Shown: piece by piece, positions 1-9,000 of the stretch | How the letters are laid out: every line of letters begins with the position of its first letter | How positions within the stretch are numbered: the stretch's first letter is position 1 | Origin: Isurus oxyrinchus | Lineage: Eukaryota | Direction of reading: 5' to 3' | NCBI GenBank assembly: GCA_026770705.1 | Contig: JANJGN010000544.1 | Location: forward strand, 186,001 to 250,000 | Length of the DNA stretch: 64,000 bases | Program-made: the position numbers

Positions 1-3000
1 AAAAAAAACGTCTGTGGCCATATGTGTTGGGATATGAAGGATTCCTTCCCCCATTCCCGGCTACCTCAGTCAATAGAATATAAAACACTTAATTTCAGGG
101 TCATGTGTTGGAGCCCCATGCTGGGGGCTGTTGTCATTTACAATCTTGCTGCTCTAAAACAAAAAAAAAACACAACCTCATTCAGTGGCACCTACAAGGC
201 AGAAATTCACCACTGGCACCAACTGACAGACATCAAATTCAAAACACTTTCATGTCGCGTTTCTTTCTGCTTCTGTCCCTGTCTCGTCTCCAGCTCCGTC
301 TGCCCGTACAGCTCCCAGGTCAATTAGCTGCTTGATGCAGACACAGTCAGTACGTGAGAATGTAAAACACAATACGATAGGTTTGCAGACCACAGAGTAA
401 AAAGACACCAGGATGTCATCTTCCTGATTCTCCCAGATACTGATTACAGGAATGTACACAGTGCCGATTATCCACAGTCACAGTCTCCTTCCAGTCTTGT
501 CCACGTTAATCAGTTTTGAAATTGTTCACATTTTTATACTGGATTTCAATGTGGAGAAAGCAGAGCTGTGAGAAGCTTATATTGTTCAGCAAATGTACTG
601 CAGGAAGGTGCCTAACAGGCTGATGATAACAGTACTCTTTGGACACGGTGAGCTCCAGTGAAGGATCGGCACCATTAATGTGTCGCTCATTTAGTCTCGT
701 GACTAATCTCGTGCTGGAAATGACAGGAAAACTCGGTGAATTTGCTCCGTGTTTTGGTTTCGACGAGCCGAATACAAGGCAAGAAAGCGCATTTCACTAG
801 AATGGGTTATAAAGTGGCAGTGTTGGCGGTGTTGAGAAACAACATTATAGAAAATTACAGCATGGAAAGAGCCCATTGAGTCCTAGCGCGCCGCTTCCAA
901 AGCGAAGTTGATTGATCAGAAGTGATATCTGCGCCGGTGCAAATGGAAGACAGTAACATTCGTCCTTCTCCCACCCATGTTTCGCCTTGCAACCAACCCT
1001 TCTTCCCTGCTGTTTGTTCTCGACTTGTTCGAAGTGTGACATTTCTTGCTGTGAGGCGAAACTTTAACTAGTCCAGTACATAAACAACTGTGACTGAGCC
1101 AATTACAGAAACAACTGAGGCTGTTGCAAATAGTGGGGCTGTTTGCAAATAGTAAGTGACCACACTCACCAAACCTTAATTCCCTGACCGGGACTCGAAC
1201 CCGGGCCGCGGCGGGTTTTTCAGTTCAGATCTCTTTCACCACAAAACTGCCTGTTTAGGTTTAACACAAACGAATTCTTCAGCCAATGAAAATAACGGTT
1301 GCTGTGAGCTGGAACATGAAATCGACAGTGAGGTGAAATAGTCCCACAAGCTGCACATGCGTAACTTTCAATTTCCAAACCCTCCACCCTATTCGCTGTG
1401 GGCCAATGGAAGCGCCGATCCCCAGTCATGAGACATCAGGGAAAGTACGAAAAAGGTTCAACATTTGGAGGCTACTTTCGACTTTTTTTTTCATTCCCGA
1501 TCTTTTCACCAGAGAGGACTTCCTCCGACTAATTGGTCTGTTTAGGTTGAACACAAGAGACTTATTTAGCCAATGAGAAGTACCAATGTTGTTAGCTGGA
1601 ACATGAAATCGATACTTTGCTCCTTTAAGACAATTCTTAAAGCCTCCCCCTTTGACCGAGCTTTTAGTTATCTGACCGAATGTGAGGCTCGGTGTCACAC
1701 TTTGTTATATAATGATTACGGGGGACGCCTTGTGACATTTCAACAGATTAAATGCGCTTTATCAATATAAGTTATTATATGCAGAAGCATTATCAAAACT
1801 TGCTCTTTTAAGTGAGAGGAAAGCTGCCTTGTTCCTGTTTGTTGTTGGATATTAACTGAGCGTCTTAGATTCGCTCTTCATCATTTCACAGAATAAACAG
1901 TCGGGAAAGTGAGTGTATCTTTCTGCTGGCAGCGGGTGATTGGAGAGTGCGGGTCCGGAATGTTGCTGCTTTTTTGCTTTTCCCTGTCTCACTCACTGCA
2001 GAGCTAAGGAAGAGGGAATCATTAACGGGTCTATTTTATCCAATAACTTCATAGATTTGTAGGTACCTGGTTGGTCAGTTATTAAAGAATAAAGGAGTGA
2101 CAGTATAAATTGCAGGGTTCCGCGGAAAAGGTCGGGTTGTGACAGAGACAGGGCGGGTAGAAGGTCCTCTTTATCTGCTGTAACCATTCTATGATTTCGT
2201 ATAAATAGCACAGGCGTGCTGCTAAGGTTTGTAGTCGTGGCCGAGTGGTTAAGGTGATGGATTTGAAATCCATTGGGGTTACCCCGCGTACGTTCGAAAC
2301 TTGCTGACTACGTTTTCCATTATTTCTGATTTTAACCATTGATCTCTAACAGTAAATCGAATCGACATTTGCACAACAGCTGCAGTAGCAAAGTTGGACC
2401 AGTGGGTGATTGCTTCCATCACATGAAGCAGGCGCTGTCTCAATTATTACTGCATTTGGCACTGTCTCTGTTCATATTAAATTAGACGCTGTTTCTGTTT
2501 CTATTACACTAGGACATGTCTCTAATCATATTAGAGAAGGTCATCTCTCAGTTGTTTCTGTAATTGGCTCAGTCACAGTTGTTTATGTACTGGACTAGGG
2601 CCACAATACAGTTGGCACTATCTCAGTCATGACTGCACTGAAGCAGATCTCGGCTGAAGTTACAATAAGCCACGCCCCAGTTGGCACTGCATTAGAGCTT
2701 GTCTCTGGTTATAGAAAACTAGAACATGTTTTTATTTGCATTTCACAAGACTCTGTCCCAGCTATTACTCCAGTAGAGCCTGCCACGTGTCTATCAAACT
2801 GGACCCTATCTCAGTTAATGCTGCACCAATACATGCCTCCATTCATATCACACAATTCCCTGTTTCTGCTGTTATTGTCCTTTATAATTACTTTGTTATT
2901 GCTGTACTTGTCCATATCTCTGTTTTTATTAATCTCGTACCTTTGCACGTATTTAATTTACCAGACACTGCGTCAGATTATGTTAAAAAGAACACTGAAT

Positions 3001-6000: not shown

Positions 6001-9000
6001 AGTATTAACAGAGACATGATCTCGTGTAATATAAATAGAAATATGGGCTACTGAATTAACAATAGAGACAGGATTTCTGTAACATAGATAGAAATATGGA
6101 CCAGTACAGTCATAAGAGTAACCGTGGCTGGTACGTTATAAACATAGATATGGGCTACTTCAGTAACTGGAGATGCAGAACCTGCTGTAACATAAAGAGA
6201 GATATGAGTTTGTGCAGCGAGGACGCTAACTGTCCCTGGATTTAATATACAAATGAAACATGGGCTAGTTTGGGAAGAAGAGGGACTGGTCCTGATGATA
6301 CATTCGAAGATGCAAGTCTTTGTATCAGCAAAATGGAAAATAAATGCTTTGTATTATAAAACATGAAGAGGTCTCATTGAAGCAACTAACAGCAGCAGCG
6401 TCAACTTCAGCAATAAAAGATAAAAATTCCTATTGAAAACTGACAGGCGTAAGGTTTCCACTAATAATAATGATAGAAGTTTCCATTAGAAATTAAATGA
6501 TAGGTGGCCCCTTAATGCAACCATTGCAACGATTACACCTCAAGAAACAGGATGCCAGTGTCTATTGGCTCATGATACCACCTGGAAGATACTGGGTGAC
6601 ATTTTCCTCAGTGGAGCCACCCAGGTCGTCAAGATGGGAATTCTAATCTGAAATGTGGTTTTTCCGGCGTTAGAGCAAGATGGCATATTGGTGTGTGCGT
6701 GCGTGTGCGTGTGTGTGGTTATGTGTATGTGCATGTGTCTGGGTGTTTGTCTTTGTGCGTGCGTGCATTTATGTATGTGTGCGTCTGTGTATGTCTGTGT
6801 CTGTGTTTTGACTGTATGTGTCTGTGTGTGCATGTATGTCTGCCTGTGTGTATCAGTTTGTGTCTGTGAATGTATTTATGCATGTGAATATGTCTGAATG
6901 TGTATGTGCGTCTGTGTGCGCTTGTGTGTGTGTTTATGTCGGCGTCTGTGTTTGTGTTTGCGTGTGCATGTGTGTGTGTATATGTGTGTGTATATGTATG
7001 TGTGGGTGTGTTTGAAACACGTCATATTTTTGCAAATGAATTTCACAATGATCTTCGTCATCTTTCCATTCATGAAAGATGATGGACACACAGCAAACAA
7101 ATCTATTTCAGCTGGGTTGTCTCTATAAGCTGCACAGTTTCTGATGGCTGAGGAGGTCAATCCTTGAGGGGCAGTTTCCATCACAAGTGCCTCAAATGAA
7201 GCTAAACGCGATGTTATGGGCTGTTGTTTCTTGTCTTGGCGTCTGTTGCCAAGCCACTGTAGCAAATGGGCATCATGATGATGCCCAACAGCTCACAGAA
7301 AGTGCTGACATCTTCCTCTGTAGTCATTGAGTGAAATTCATGTCTGACAATCGCTAATTAGGGCCTTCATGTCACGAATGTAATTGTTCTACAAGCAGAG
7401 CTTTGGGCGTCTCACTGTCCGCCTGGTCCTTAGCTATGTGACCACCTTCCATCCTGTAAACGGGCCCGAGCCATCCAACCTCCCTCTGTTTGCTGAGCCT
7501 AACAGACTTGGGAGCTCTGTCTTTGAGAGGGCTGCCGCTTCCTGATTGTGTCCCGCCAGGAAATACCCAATAACCACCGCACACAGTGCAGATGGAAGTT
7601 GCGGGGATTTTTTTTCTTGATAACTGGATGTCGTCCATGTTTCACAGCCAGACAACAAGGTACTGAGGACACAGGCCTAATACACCATCTGCTTGGTGTC
7701 AAAGATCAGCATGATGTTAATTCATATACGTTTCATGAGTCAGGTGATATCTGTTTCCCTGTGTGTGTATCAGGAACTGCATCAAGGAGCAGACTCTCTG
7801 TCACCGAGGAAGCTGGGGAGCAGGATTTACCAGCCATATCAGCCGGGTATTACCTTGTGTGATCAGTGGTGGAAGTGCAACACTTTAAACATGATTTTCT
7901 TGAGGTTTTTAGTCAAATAGAACAAGTTAAAACCATGCGAGAGACGGTAAATGAGTCGCTGTTGATCTTCCTGTACAATAAATCTGTGTAACAGAATTTA
8001 ATAAACCAGCACGGGTGTCGGGGGTTCGCTTACGCTCTGTCATTGCAATGCTACCTGCTGAAAACCGTTCCATCAATTCAAGAATCGCGGATCCAAATGT
8101 GGCTCCACATGTAGTAGCTCCAGTAAAATTTCTGCTCTAGGTGAGGTTCGAACTCACAACCTCGGCATAGCCCGCTGATCGCACTGCTCTATAAGTACCG
8201 CGTGCTCACCGATTGCGCCACTGGAGCGCCCGCTAATAGTTGCATTTGATCTGGTTACATTTTTCACAGATCACTGGGGTCAGACATGATTCCTTGGTGG
8301 CAGATTGGTCAATGGGGCTCAGTAAATTTTTATGATACTATATGAACAGTAATATATTTTTAATAAAATAAAATGCTGAGAATGGGTCAGGGAAACCTTG
8401 TTAGTTTTCACACACTGAGCATGGGCACTGCTGAAGGTCCTGCGCCTTTTTCAATATTATCTTCCTTAACTCCGAGTTTTCAAAAGGGAATTGGACAAAA
8501 ATTTGAAATGGAAAAGCTGTCGGGTTATGAAGAAAGAGAAAGGTATTGGGACTAATTGGGCAGCTCTCTCAAAAAAGCTGGCGAGGGCACGATTGGTCCT
8601 AATGAGCTGTGAACTTTTACGATTCCAGTGCGAGATCAATGTGTTCCTAAATATCTCAGCCCAATCCTATTTCTGCAAAGGATAACCCAGAACTGCAACA
8701 TGAGGACACAGTTTGAAATTCTATACATGCCCCTCTGGCTAACTCTCTGTAGTGTCCTGGTTGTCATATTCGCCCAACAGGCGCACAAACCCCCGATCAA
8801 AATGGGGCAGAAACATTACCAAACGCGTTTAATCTCCGAGCCGCCAGAAATCAGTAATTCGTGTTTGTTGTTGAATATTAACTGAATACAGCATCTTACA
8901 CTGTGAAAAAGAACAGACTTATGGGACCCTGCAGGGTAAGAGCACTGATCAGAAATGAATAGTTTTGATTCCGGAGTTCTGATTATTTCTGAGATAAAAT

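What the first reader, a model, noticed from the sequence alone, without database searches (positions are those of the whole stretch)
2345..6440. Foldback-like composite repeat built from inverted 27-bp arrays
Seen: a ~3-kb unit (excluding the LINE insertion) organised as terminus > 27-bp array > unique core < inverted 27-bp array < decayed terminus (~6376-6435 weakly resembles 55177-55231). The same modules recur at 18126-18662, 22570-25750, 45440-48020 (core inverted) and 54290-55260, each broken by different LINE insertions, so the family is old. Established: Foldback elements have long inverted termini made of tandem subrepeats. Inference: an undescribed non-autonomous Foldback-like element, or the scaffold of ancient inverted duplications around Ig clusters. 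No transposase or target-site duplication was identified.
Basis: partly seen in the sequence, partly recalled or inferred. Interest (0 to 1): 0.65.

Follow-up and report, generated by a model that had tools for sequence, protein, structure and literature searches.

The report
Ancient inverted-array repeat beside shark IgH
A roughly 3-kb non-coding repeat, built from two oppositely oriented arrays of a 27-base unit around a unique core, really does recur in this shark-like antibody-gene flank, but the copies are very old and some were copied locally, so it looks like an ordinary relic repeat rather than a proven jumping element.

Summary
The structure is real. Copy A (2316-6469) is a terminal module T, a 1.3-kb array of 27-bp units on the minus strand, a 1.1-kb non-repetitive core split by a LINE-like insertion (4531-5516), a 0.45-kb array on the plus strand, and an end module R. 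Copy B (22520-25484) is collinear with A at 58-63% identity and has the empty LINE site. Partial or rearranged copies lie at 18097-18661, 45440-48030, 53377-53717 and 54263-56040.

The 27-bp unit belongs to the same family as a 12-kb 54-bp satellite at 29.9-42.3 kb.

The Foldback reading is not established:
- The right ends of A and B carry no detectable inverted T.
- The arms match only as generic arrays.
- No transposase domain or target-site duplication was found.
- Two pairs of copies (B/C, E/F) share junctions with unrelated retroelement pieces, which points to local segmental duplication.
- Only one V-D-D-J cluster lies in the window, and no copy flanks it.

In favour of mobility, the outer edge of T meets three unrelated flanks.

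Best reading (0.5): a decayed satellite-derived composite repeat, multiplied and inverted locally. A relic Tetris-like foldback transposon remains possible (0.3). No genome-wide, Dfam or Repbase check could be run.

The parts
2316..2458 (+). Copy A: outer module T (non-array terminus, runs into the first array unit)
   Evidence: T profile, E 5e-33; alignments.
2440..3740 (-). Copy A: left arm, degenerate 27-bp array with units on the minus strand
   Evidence: Lag-27 autocorrelation 0.437, z 5.8; 16 minus / 2 plus unit-profile hits.
3741..4530 (+). Copy A: core part 1, non-repetitive, no Pfam-supported ORF
   Evidence: Collinear with B 24101-24786; no 27-bp period.
4531..5516 (-). 5'-truncated LINE-like insertion (its 3' end at 4531), absent from copy B
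   Evidence: 73-74% identity to 12140-13007(-) and 14813-15451; RVT_1 in the paralogue; empty site in B.
5517..5859 (+). Copy A: core part 2
   Evidence: Core2 profile also finds B 24787-25122 and D 46265-45989(-), E 7e-19.
5860..6300 (+). Copy A: right arm, 27-bp array with units on the plus strand
   Evidence: Lag-27 autocorrelation 0.413; 4 plus / 0 minus hits.
6281..6469 (+). Copy A: right-end module R (not an inverted T)
   Evidence: R profile finds only A and B; T-versus-R tests negative.
17741..18117 (+). X repeat (retroelement-like 3' end) abutting T of copy C
18097..18661 (+). Copy C: T (18097-18252) plus 430 bp of minus-polarity array, truncated and followed by another X copy (18667-19378)
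   Evidence: 70-71% identity to A and B.
21597..22520 (+). X repeat abutting T of copy B; same X-tail|T junction as in C
22520..25484 (+). Copy B, uninterrupted: T 22520-22689, left arm 22650-24100 (units on minus), core 24101-25119, right arm 25120-25300 (units on plus), R 25300-25484. Array-like sequence may run on to about 25713.
29890..42270 (+). 54-bp (2 x 27) satellite of the same unit family. Split by a 2.1-kb insertion at 30505-32609. Its left edge lies next to the N gap at 29564-29707.
   Evidence: TRF: 109.6 copies at 36101-42018; lag-54 0.613 against lag-27 0.424; 191 plus-strand profile hits.
45440..48030 (.). Copy D: minus-polarity array 45440-45990, core reversed 45989-46626, plus-polarity arrays 46531-46860 and 47750-48030. 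Retroelement pieces lie between them at 46960-47750.
   Evidence: Weak T-like match at 45417-45476(+), E 0.0057 in a restricted search.
53377..53717 (-). Fragment F: LINE 3'-end piece plus inverted T (53542-53701); a duplicate of the matching part of E
54263..56040 (.). Locus E: plus-polarity array 54263-54800, LINE piece 54786-55090, inverted T 55141-55299, (TG)n 55487-55571, core part in plus orientation 55611-56040

Best explanation
This is a decayed, non-coding, low-copy composite repeat, not a working or demonstrable transposon.

Proposed history:
- An old 27-bp satellite family pervades this flank of an elasmobranch-type IgH minilocus.
- In one ancestral segment, two stretches of it came to lie head-to-head around about 1.1 kb of unique DNA. 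That gave the unit T - array(minus) - core - array(plus) - R, about 3 kb long.
- The unit and pieces of it were then copied within this 55-kb stretch by segmental duplication. They were rearranged by recombination between the arrays and between interspersed retroelement copies. This produced the reversed core in D and the reversed T+arm in E.
- Elsewhere a dimer of the unit was amplified into the 12-kb 54-bp satellite.
- LINE-like elements later inserted into individual copies.

Shown here: the anatomy, the homology, the polarity of the arrays, the shared junctions, and the lack of Pfam-supported coding capacity.
Inferred: the order of events and recombination as the mechanism.
For: (1) All copies sit within 55 kb and all are deeply diverged.
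- A-B identity is 58-63% (K2P 0.52-0.64); A-C and B-C are 70-71%. The shuffled control gives 42%.
- T modules are 50-72% identical pairwise.

(2) B and C have the same junction between the tail of the unrelated repeat X and T.
- X occurs at least 8 times in the window, mostly away from T.
- C is bracketed by two X copies in the same orientation (17741-18117 and 18667-19378). That is the pattern expected from unequal recombination between X copies.

(3) E-F homology (54997-55281 ~ 53377-53681, E 3.9e-12) starts 94 bp inside the LINE piece of E (54786-55090). F was therefore copied together with an insertion junction.

(4) The right ends of A and B carry R, not an inverted T.

(5) The arms are related only as generic arrays. 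A_right scores 44.0, 43.8, 38.6, 37.8 and 35.4 bits against several registers of the left arms, and 41.6 bits against the satellite.

(6) A_left resembles B_left far more (about 170 bits) than its own right arm (about 43 bits). The inverted layout therefore predates the A/B split and has not been homogenised since.

(7) No transposase domain was found. 69 of 83 ORFs >=90 aa and 150 of 183 ORFs of 60-89 aa were scanned. The only relevant matches were RVT_1 at 11992 and V-set at 59327.
Against: (1) The outer edge of T coincides, within about 25 bp, in three unrelated flank contexts. These are the tRNA-Ser in A, the X tail in B/C, and unique DNA in E/F. Flank queries 1800-2344 and 55300-55485 find nothing else in the window. 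A recurrent boundary like this is what a mobile element's end would give.

(2) T occurs in both orientations, each time at the outer end of an array of the matching polarity. This is as expected for the arms of a foldback element.

(3) A and B are flanked on both sides by DNA with no detectable homology. The duplicated segment is therefore just the 3-kb unit.

(4) Only one 64-kb window was seen. Local clustering cannot be told apart from a genome-wide family.
Confidence: 0.5

Rival explanations
1. Relic of a non-autonomous Foldback/Tetris-like DNA transposon. The long arms are made of 27-bp subrepeats (possibly former transposase-binding sites), with an outer flanking domain T and a non-coding middle domain. 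It would have been mobilised in trans long ago. Its arm repeats seeded the 12-kb satellite, and local duplication then added some copies.
For: - Foldback-like layout.
- T occurs 3 times in plus and 2 times in minus orientation, at the outer ends of arrays.
- The outer T boundary meets three unrelated flanks.
- Modular rearranged forms exist, and a kb-scale satellite is built from the arm unit. Tetris shows the same features (PMC4079207: abstract and sections 10 and 17 read).
- The core is non-coding, as in Tetris.
Against: - No inverted T at the right end of either full copy.
- No unique mirror register between the arms.
- No target-site duplications are readable.
- No transposase in the window.
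- The B/C and E/F pairs were copied together with foreign junctions.
- All copies lie within 55 kb.
- The satellite is not visibly nested in a unit. There is no T or core next to it, and its left edge is at an assembly gap.
Confidence: 0.3
2. The arrays and T are part of a retroelement, for example a tandem-repeat UTR of the X or LINE family. The inverted layout would then come from head-to-head insertions.
For: X copies lie next to or inside arrays several times: 17741-18117, 21597-22520, 44923-45119 and 47654-47771.
Against: - X tails are followed by unrelated sequence at 28397 and at 45119.
- A, E and F have T without X.
- No homology was found between T, core or array and any LINE or X copy in the tile comparison.
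Confidence: 0.05
3. A functional element of the Ig locus, such as a regulatory or insulator array, or a recombination substrate between miniloci.
For: Position 3-57 kb upstream of a V-D-D-J cluster. Inverted arrays could promote inversions.
Against: - Copies are 58-72% identical, with many indels, and show no conserved block beyond neutral-looking decay.
- No copy is next to an Ig segment. Only one V is in the window.
- No RNA family matches apart from two tRNA-like hits.
Confidence: 0.05
4. Chance similarity in AT-rich, low-complexity DNA.
For: Individual unit matches in the right arms are weak (best E 0.088 in A_right). TRF reports only two short runs inside the finding.
Against: - nhmmer E-values down to 1e-51 for A against B.
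- The period-27 signal is absent from the controls.
- Shuffled sequences align at 42%, against 58-71% observed.
Confidence: 0.01

Closest known systems
Tetris, foldback transposon of Drosophila virilis (PMC4079207; abstract and sections 10 and 17 read)
   Same: - Arms containing tandem subrepeats, with an outer flanking domain and a non-coding middle domain.
- Few structurally complete copies and many rearranged ones.
- The same subrepeat also forms kb-size satellite-like arrays.
- No transposase found.
   Different: - Tetris has matching terminal inverted repeats at both ends and target-site duplications of 8-10 bp. Here the two full copies have T at one end and an unrelated R at the other, and no target-site duplication is readable.
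- The Tetris subrepeat is about 220 bp; here it is 27 bp (54 bp in the satellite).
- Here the copies are 58-72% identical and clustered in 55 kb.
- Insect versus cartilaginous fish.
Classical Foldback (FB) elements, and Galileo with its long terminal inverted repeats, in Drosophila (FB as described in the Tetris paper; Galileo from a search listing and the start of the abstract of PMC3688188 only)
   Same: Long inverted arms built of short tandem repeats. Association with inversions.
   Different: Same failures as for Tetris. Those elements have defined matching termini and, in Galileo, a known transposase that binds sites in the long inverted repeats. Nothing of that kind is seen here.
Segmental duplications (low-copy repeats) in immunoglobulin loci (human IGHV example seen only as a search listing and the start of the abstract, PMC3042411)
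   Same: Local copying of kb-scale segments together with whatever repeats they contain. Shared junctions between copies. Inversions.
   Different: Here the duplicated units carry no Ig segments. They are much older and smaller than typical described Ig-locus duplications.
Satellite DNA with higher-order (dimer) repeats
   Same: A 27-bp unit family, with a 54-bp dimer amplified to about 12 kb and longer periods of 215 and 454 bp.
   Different: Inside the finding the arrays are short (0.4-1.4 kb) and strongly decayed. They are embedded in a repeated unit that also contains unique modules.

Membership tests
Foldback-type DNA transposons (FB, Tetris) | Long arms in inverted orientation made of tandem subrepeats | tested here: met
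   A period of 27 in both arms, with opposite strand polarity, in A and B. The relation holds only at the level of generic units, with no unique mirror register.
Foldback-type DNA transposons (FB, Tetris) | The same terminal (flanking) domain at both ends, in inverted orientation | tested here: not met
   - The T profile finds no inverted T at 6300-6600 or 25330-25630.
- Shuffle test: 189 of 300 and 35 of 300 shuffles reach the observed score.
- The right ends share a different module, R.
Foldback-type DNA transposons (FB, Tetris) | Target-site duplications of constant length | tested here: inconclusive
   The boundaries can be placed only to within about 25 bp at 58-72% identity. No direct repeat could be assigned.
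Foldback-type DNA transposons (FB, Tetris) | Copies with common ends in unrelated flanks; empty sites | tested here: inconclusive
   The outer edge of T meets three unrelated flanks. However, the B/C and E/F pairs share flanking junctions, and the right end is ill defined. No genome was available in which to look for empty sites.
Foldback-type DNA transposons (FB, Tetris) | Non-coding middle domain, or a transposase in autonomous relatives | tested here: inconclusive
   The cores have no Pfam match, and no transposase domain was found in 219 ORFs scanned. Autonomous relatives elsewhere in the genome could not be searched.
Foldback-type DNA transposons (FB, Tetris) | Dispersed, multi-copy distribution in the genome | not testable with these tools
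   No eukaryotic genome, Dfam or Repbase was available. Genome contigs holds only bacteria and archaea and was not used.
Satellite DNA family (27/54 bp) | Head-to-tail tandem arrays of a common unit, including kb-scale arrays | tested here: met
   TRF reports 54-bp arrays from 30131 to 42018. A profile built from them marks the arms of A, B, C and D in a strand-specific way.
Segmental (local) duplication | Copies share junctions with unrelated inserted elements, or share flanking sequence | tested here: met
   Met for two pairs. B and C share the X-tail|T junction. E and F share the LINE piece next to T. Not met for A against B, whose flanks are unrelated.

The most novel reading that the evidence does not exclude
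These are the remains of a Tetris-like foldback DNA transposon family in a cartilaginous fish. The 27-bp arm subrepeat seeded a 12-kb satellite, and the inverted arms drove inversions (the reversed core in D, the reversed arm in E) just upstream of an IgH minilocus. My searches found no paper on foldback elements in sharks. 'foldback' with 'elasmobranch' gave 0 papers. 'foldback' with 'shark' gave 3 papers, none relevant by title.
Probability: 0.2. Interest if true: 0.55.

Novelty: new member of a known kind. Interest (0 to 1): 0.3.

Why it matters
As it stands, the finding matters mainly for annotation. It is a repeat family with four unique modules (T, core1, core2, R) plus a 27/54-bp satellite. 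It should be masked and named when IgH flanks of this genome are analysed. It also shows that inverted arrays and retroelement copies have reshuffled the DNA upstream of an IgH cluster.

If the transposon reading were confirmed genome-wide, it would extend the foldback-to-satellite route known from Drosophila (Tetris) to an early-branching vertebrate. It would also give a concrete source for a shark satellite. That would be of moderate interest to transposon and satellite specialists, but it would not open a long-standing question.

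Tried and rejected
(1) Inverted T at the right ends of A and B. Tested with the whole-window profile, a restricted profile search and a shuffle test.

(2) Homology of the right flanks of A and E. A tile hit (6445-6835 ~ 55210-55625, E 8.6e-14) vanished once the (TG)n tracts were left out: queries 6440-6690 and 55300-55485 hit only themselves. I put it down to the microsatellite.

(3) The tRNA-Ser as part of the repeated unit. 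One A-C alignment ran back to 2237. The flank query 1800-2344 alone finds nothing else, so this idea is dropped.

(4) The right arm as a specific mirror image of the outer left arm. The first tile scores suggested this. A dedicated query gave several registers of near-equal score, plus an equally good match to the satellite. Rejected.

(5) Copy D as a whole unit in reverse, versus a flipped core. This stays undecided.
- The contiguity with B (24904-25361 ~ 46143-45671) fits both readings.
- D_left matches the left arms better (56.0 and 51.0 bits) than the right arm of A (41.8 bits).
- A weak T-like match lies to its left (E 0.0057).
- These last two points lean slightly towards a flipped core.

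(6) Array signal beyond R, at 6470-6700 and 25485-25890. I thought I saw units by eye, but the unit profile finds none. Only one arm-to-arm alignment reaches 25713.

(7) T or core next to the big satellite: none found.

(8) Coding capacity: Pfam on 219 ORFs gave nothing relevant inside any copy.
- The 14 ORFs >=90 aa inside the satellite or across the N gap were not scanned.
- The 33 ORFs of 60-89 aa from 52.7-64 kb were not scanned either.

(9) Literature: seven searches and term look-ups in two shark genome papers found no description of this repeat.

Full report
CONTEXT

The window is 64,000 bases with 40.9% G+C and one N run at 29564-29707, which I left alone. It does not look human.

At its right end lies an unrearranged heavy-chain minilocus of the cartilaginous-fish type.
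- It has a leader, a VH exon and a recombination signal after the V. Two D-like segments and a JH follow at about 60.05-60.9 kb. I read these by eye.
- V-set matches at 59327-59611, E 8e-4, below the Pfam cut-off.
- The best protein relative of the V exon frame is a hypothetical Ig-like protein of Scyliorhinus torazame, 64% identity over 67% of the query.
- I searched that single exon frame only. The leader, the V exon and the two V frames were not joined.
- tblastn finds no second V in the window: 1 significant hit of 5 listed, and that hit is the query itself.

Yes, for the most part.

Period. Autocorrelation shows a period of 27 as the top lag in every proposed arm:
- A_left 0.437 (z 5.8), A_right 0.413, C 0.388, B_left 0.402, B_right 0.410, D_left 0.418, E 0.348.
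- The two core parts, the LINE piece and two control stretches are at background.

Polarity. A unit profile built from the large satellite marks the arms in a strand-specific way at E<=10:
- A_left 16 minus / 2 plus; A_right 4 plus / 0 minus.
- B_left 16 / 0; B_right 0 minus / 4 plus.
- C 5 minus / 0 plus; D_left 6 minus / 1 plus.
- Only some hits are individually significant, and none in the right arms.
- The repeat finder gives 6 inverted pairs in 2300-6560, 5 of them joining the two arms.

Copies A and B. They are collinear over T, left arm, core, right arm and R.
- nhmmer E-values run down to 1.2e-51.
- Global identity is 58-63%, against 42% for shuffled controls.

The insertion at 4531-5516. 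It is a 5'-truncated retroelement piece on the minus strand.
- It is 73-74% identical to 12140-13007(-) and 14813-15451.
- The first of these overlaps a weak RVT_1 match.
- In B the homology runs straight across the site, 24783 to 24787. The insertion therefore postdates the A/B split.

MODULES AND THEIR COPIES

Profiles give the following counts in the window:
- T: five copies. Plus strand at 2316-2458, 18097-18252 and 22520-22689. Minus strand at 55299-55141 and 53701-53542.
- core1: three copies (A, B, 55611-55825), all plus.
- core2: three copies (A and B plus; 46265-45989 minus).
- R: two copies (A, B).

The copies are all old. T modules are 50-72% identical pairwise. A-C and B-C are 70-71% identical over T plus 400 bp of array.

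LINK TO THE SATELLITE

- TRF reports 109.6 copies at 36101-42018 alone, with longer periods of 215 and 454 bp.
- In the satellite, lag 54 (0.613) beats lag 27 (0.424). In the arms, lag 27 is highest.
- The satellite is therefore an amplified dimer of the older unit.
- No T or core lies beside it. Its left edge is next to the assembly gap.

TESTS OF THE FOLDBACK READING

(a) Matching termini: not met.
- The T profile finds nothing at the right ends of A or B, either in the whole window or in a restricted search.
- In a shuffle test, 189 of 300 (A) and 35 of 300 (B) shuffles reach the observed score. For the true inverted copies E and F the figure is 0 of 300.

(b) Mirror-image arms: not shown.
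- A_right scores 44.0, 43.8, 38.6, 37.8 and 35.4 bits against different registers of the left arms. It scores 41.6 bits against the satellite.

(c) Own-arm similarity: A_left is far closer to B_left than to A_right. The arms have not been kept alike within a copy.

(d) Coding capacity: no transposase domain.
- 69 of 83 ORFs of 90 aa or more were scanned. The 14 inside the satellite or across the gap were left out.
- 150 of 183 ORFs of 60-89 aa were scanned. The 33 from 52.7-64 kb were left out.
- The only matches were RVT_1, V-set and three chance-level matches far below their cut-offs.

(e) Target-site duplications: the ends can be placed only to within about 25 bp, so none could be read.

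(f) Right boundary: ill defined. A/B homology stops at 6469/25484. One arm-to-arm alignment reaches 25713 in B, while the unit profile sees nothing beyond R.

EVIDENCE FOR LOCAL COPYING

A separate repeat, X, has a retroelement-like 3' end. It occurs at least eight times:
- Plus strand: 17741-18117, 18667-19378, 21597-22520, 27257-28457, 44923-45119, 47654-47771.
- Minus strand: 48545-49290, 52017-52936.

Its tail abuts T at the same place in B and in C. It does not do so in the other copies. C is bracketed by two X copies in the same orientation. This is the pattern expected from unequal recombination between X copies.

E and F share part of a LINE piece next to the inverted T. Their homology (54997-55281 ~ 53377-53681, E 3.9e-12) starts 94 bp inside the LINE-homologous stretch 54786-55090.

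B/C and E/F are therefore pairs made by segmental duplication, not by separate insertions.

EVIDENCE THAT KEEPS THE TRANSPOSON READING ALIVE

- The outer edge of T meets three unrelated flanks: the tRNA-Ser in A, the X tail in B/C and unique DNA in E/F. Flank queries find nothing else in the window.
- T sits in both orientations at the outer end of an array of the matching polarity.
- A and B have unrelated flanks on both sides.
- The combination of modular rearranged copies, a non-coding middle and a satellite made of the arm unit is what was described for Tetris in Drosophila virilis. Tetris, however, has matching inverted termini and target-site duplications of 8-10 bp (PMC4079207: abstract and sections 10 and 17 read; its supplementary tables were not seen).

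REARRANGED COPIES

Copy D has the usual arm polarity with the core reversed.
- That fits a whole unit in reverse, because the layout is symmetric.
- It equally fits a flip of the core by recombination between the inverted arms.
- D_left matches the left arms better than the right arm of A (56.0 and 51.0 bits against 41.8 bits). A weak T-like match lies to its left (E 0.0057 in a restricted search). These lean slightly towards the flip. I leave the question open.

In locus E, a plus-polarity array and an inverted T are followed by the core in plus orientation. That is, the T+arm segment is reversed relative to the core.

VERDICT

The anatomy is real and more extensive than reported. The Foldback-transposon label fails one defining test and cannot be tested on the others. 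Local duplication is shown for part of the family. There is no link to Ig segments within the window.

I rate the satellite-derived, locally duplicated composite repeat at 0.5 and a relic foldback-like transposon at 0.3.

WHAT STAYED UNCHECKED

- Dfam, Repbase and any eukaryotic genome were out of reach.
- The closed metagenome and viral collections would not bear on this question.
- The prokaryote-only genome collection was not used.
- 'Undescribed' therefore rests only on literature searches that found nothing and on term look-ups in two shark genome papers.

Noticed in passing
window 2230-2313 (+): tRNA-Ser (anticodon TGA), 84 nt, Rfam 46.2 bits, followed by a run of four T. It lies directly against the T module of copy A. 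It could be a gene or a slightly decayed pseudogene. No relic of it was shown in the other copies.
   Followed up: partly
window 8133-8227 (-): Second tRNA-like sequence, 95 nt. ARAGORN calls it Tyr with an odd anticodon (ATA); Rfam scores it 43.3 bits. The length would fit an intron-containing tRNA gene or a tRNA-derived repeat head.
   Followed up: no
window 59181-60910 (+): Unrearranged VH-D-D-JH minilocus. The VH exon reads in two frames (59327-59496 and 59500-59649). That means one frameshift, so it is either a pseudogene or an assembly error. The constant exons lie beyond the window.
   Followed up: partly
window 29890-42270 (+): A 12-kb satellite of a 54-bp unit, with longer periods of 215 and 454 bp. 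Adjacent copies match at only 67-69%. It is split by a 2.1-kb insertion (30505-32609) that carries a LINE RT-like piece at 31964-32321. It is bounded on the left by the N gap.
   Followed up: partly
window 62800-62955; also 42756-42860 (-): A hairpin-forming element of about 150 nt. The DNA fold gives -33.9 kcal/mol, z -5.09, and 0 of 200 shuffles fold as well. It has one paralogue in the window and looks like a small inverted-repeat element.
   Followed up: partly
window 48227-48257 and 50435-50470: A run of 31 C and a run of 36 G, complementary to each other and 2.18 kb apart, bracketing an X copy. Unexplained.
   Followed up: no
window 17741-18117, 18667-19378, 21597-22520, 27257-28457, 44923-45119, 47654-47771 (+); 48545-49290, 52017-52936 (-): Repeat family X, up to 1.2 kb, with no Pfam match. 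It has a conserved motif near its 3' end followed by a short variable tail, as in LINE or SINE 3' ends. It is the most frequent interspersed repeat in the window and often lies next to the 27-bp arrays.
   Followed up: partly
window 6691-7041 and 55485-55670: TG-rich compound microsatellites to the right of copy A and of locus E. They produced a spurious flank homology between the two.
   Followed up: yes
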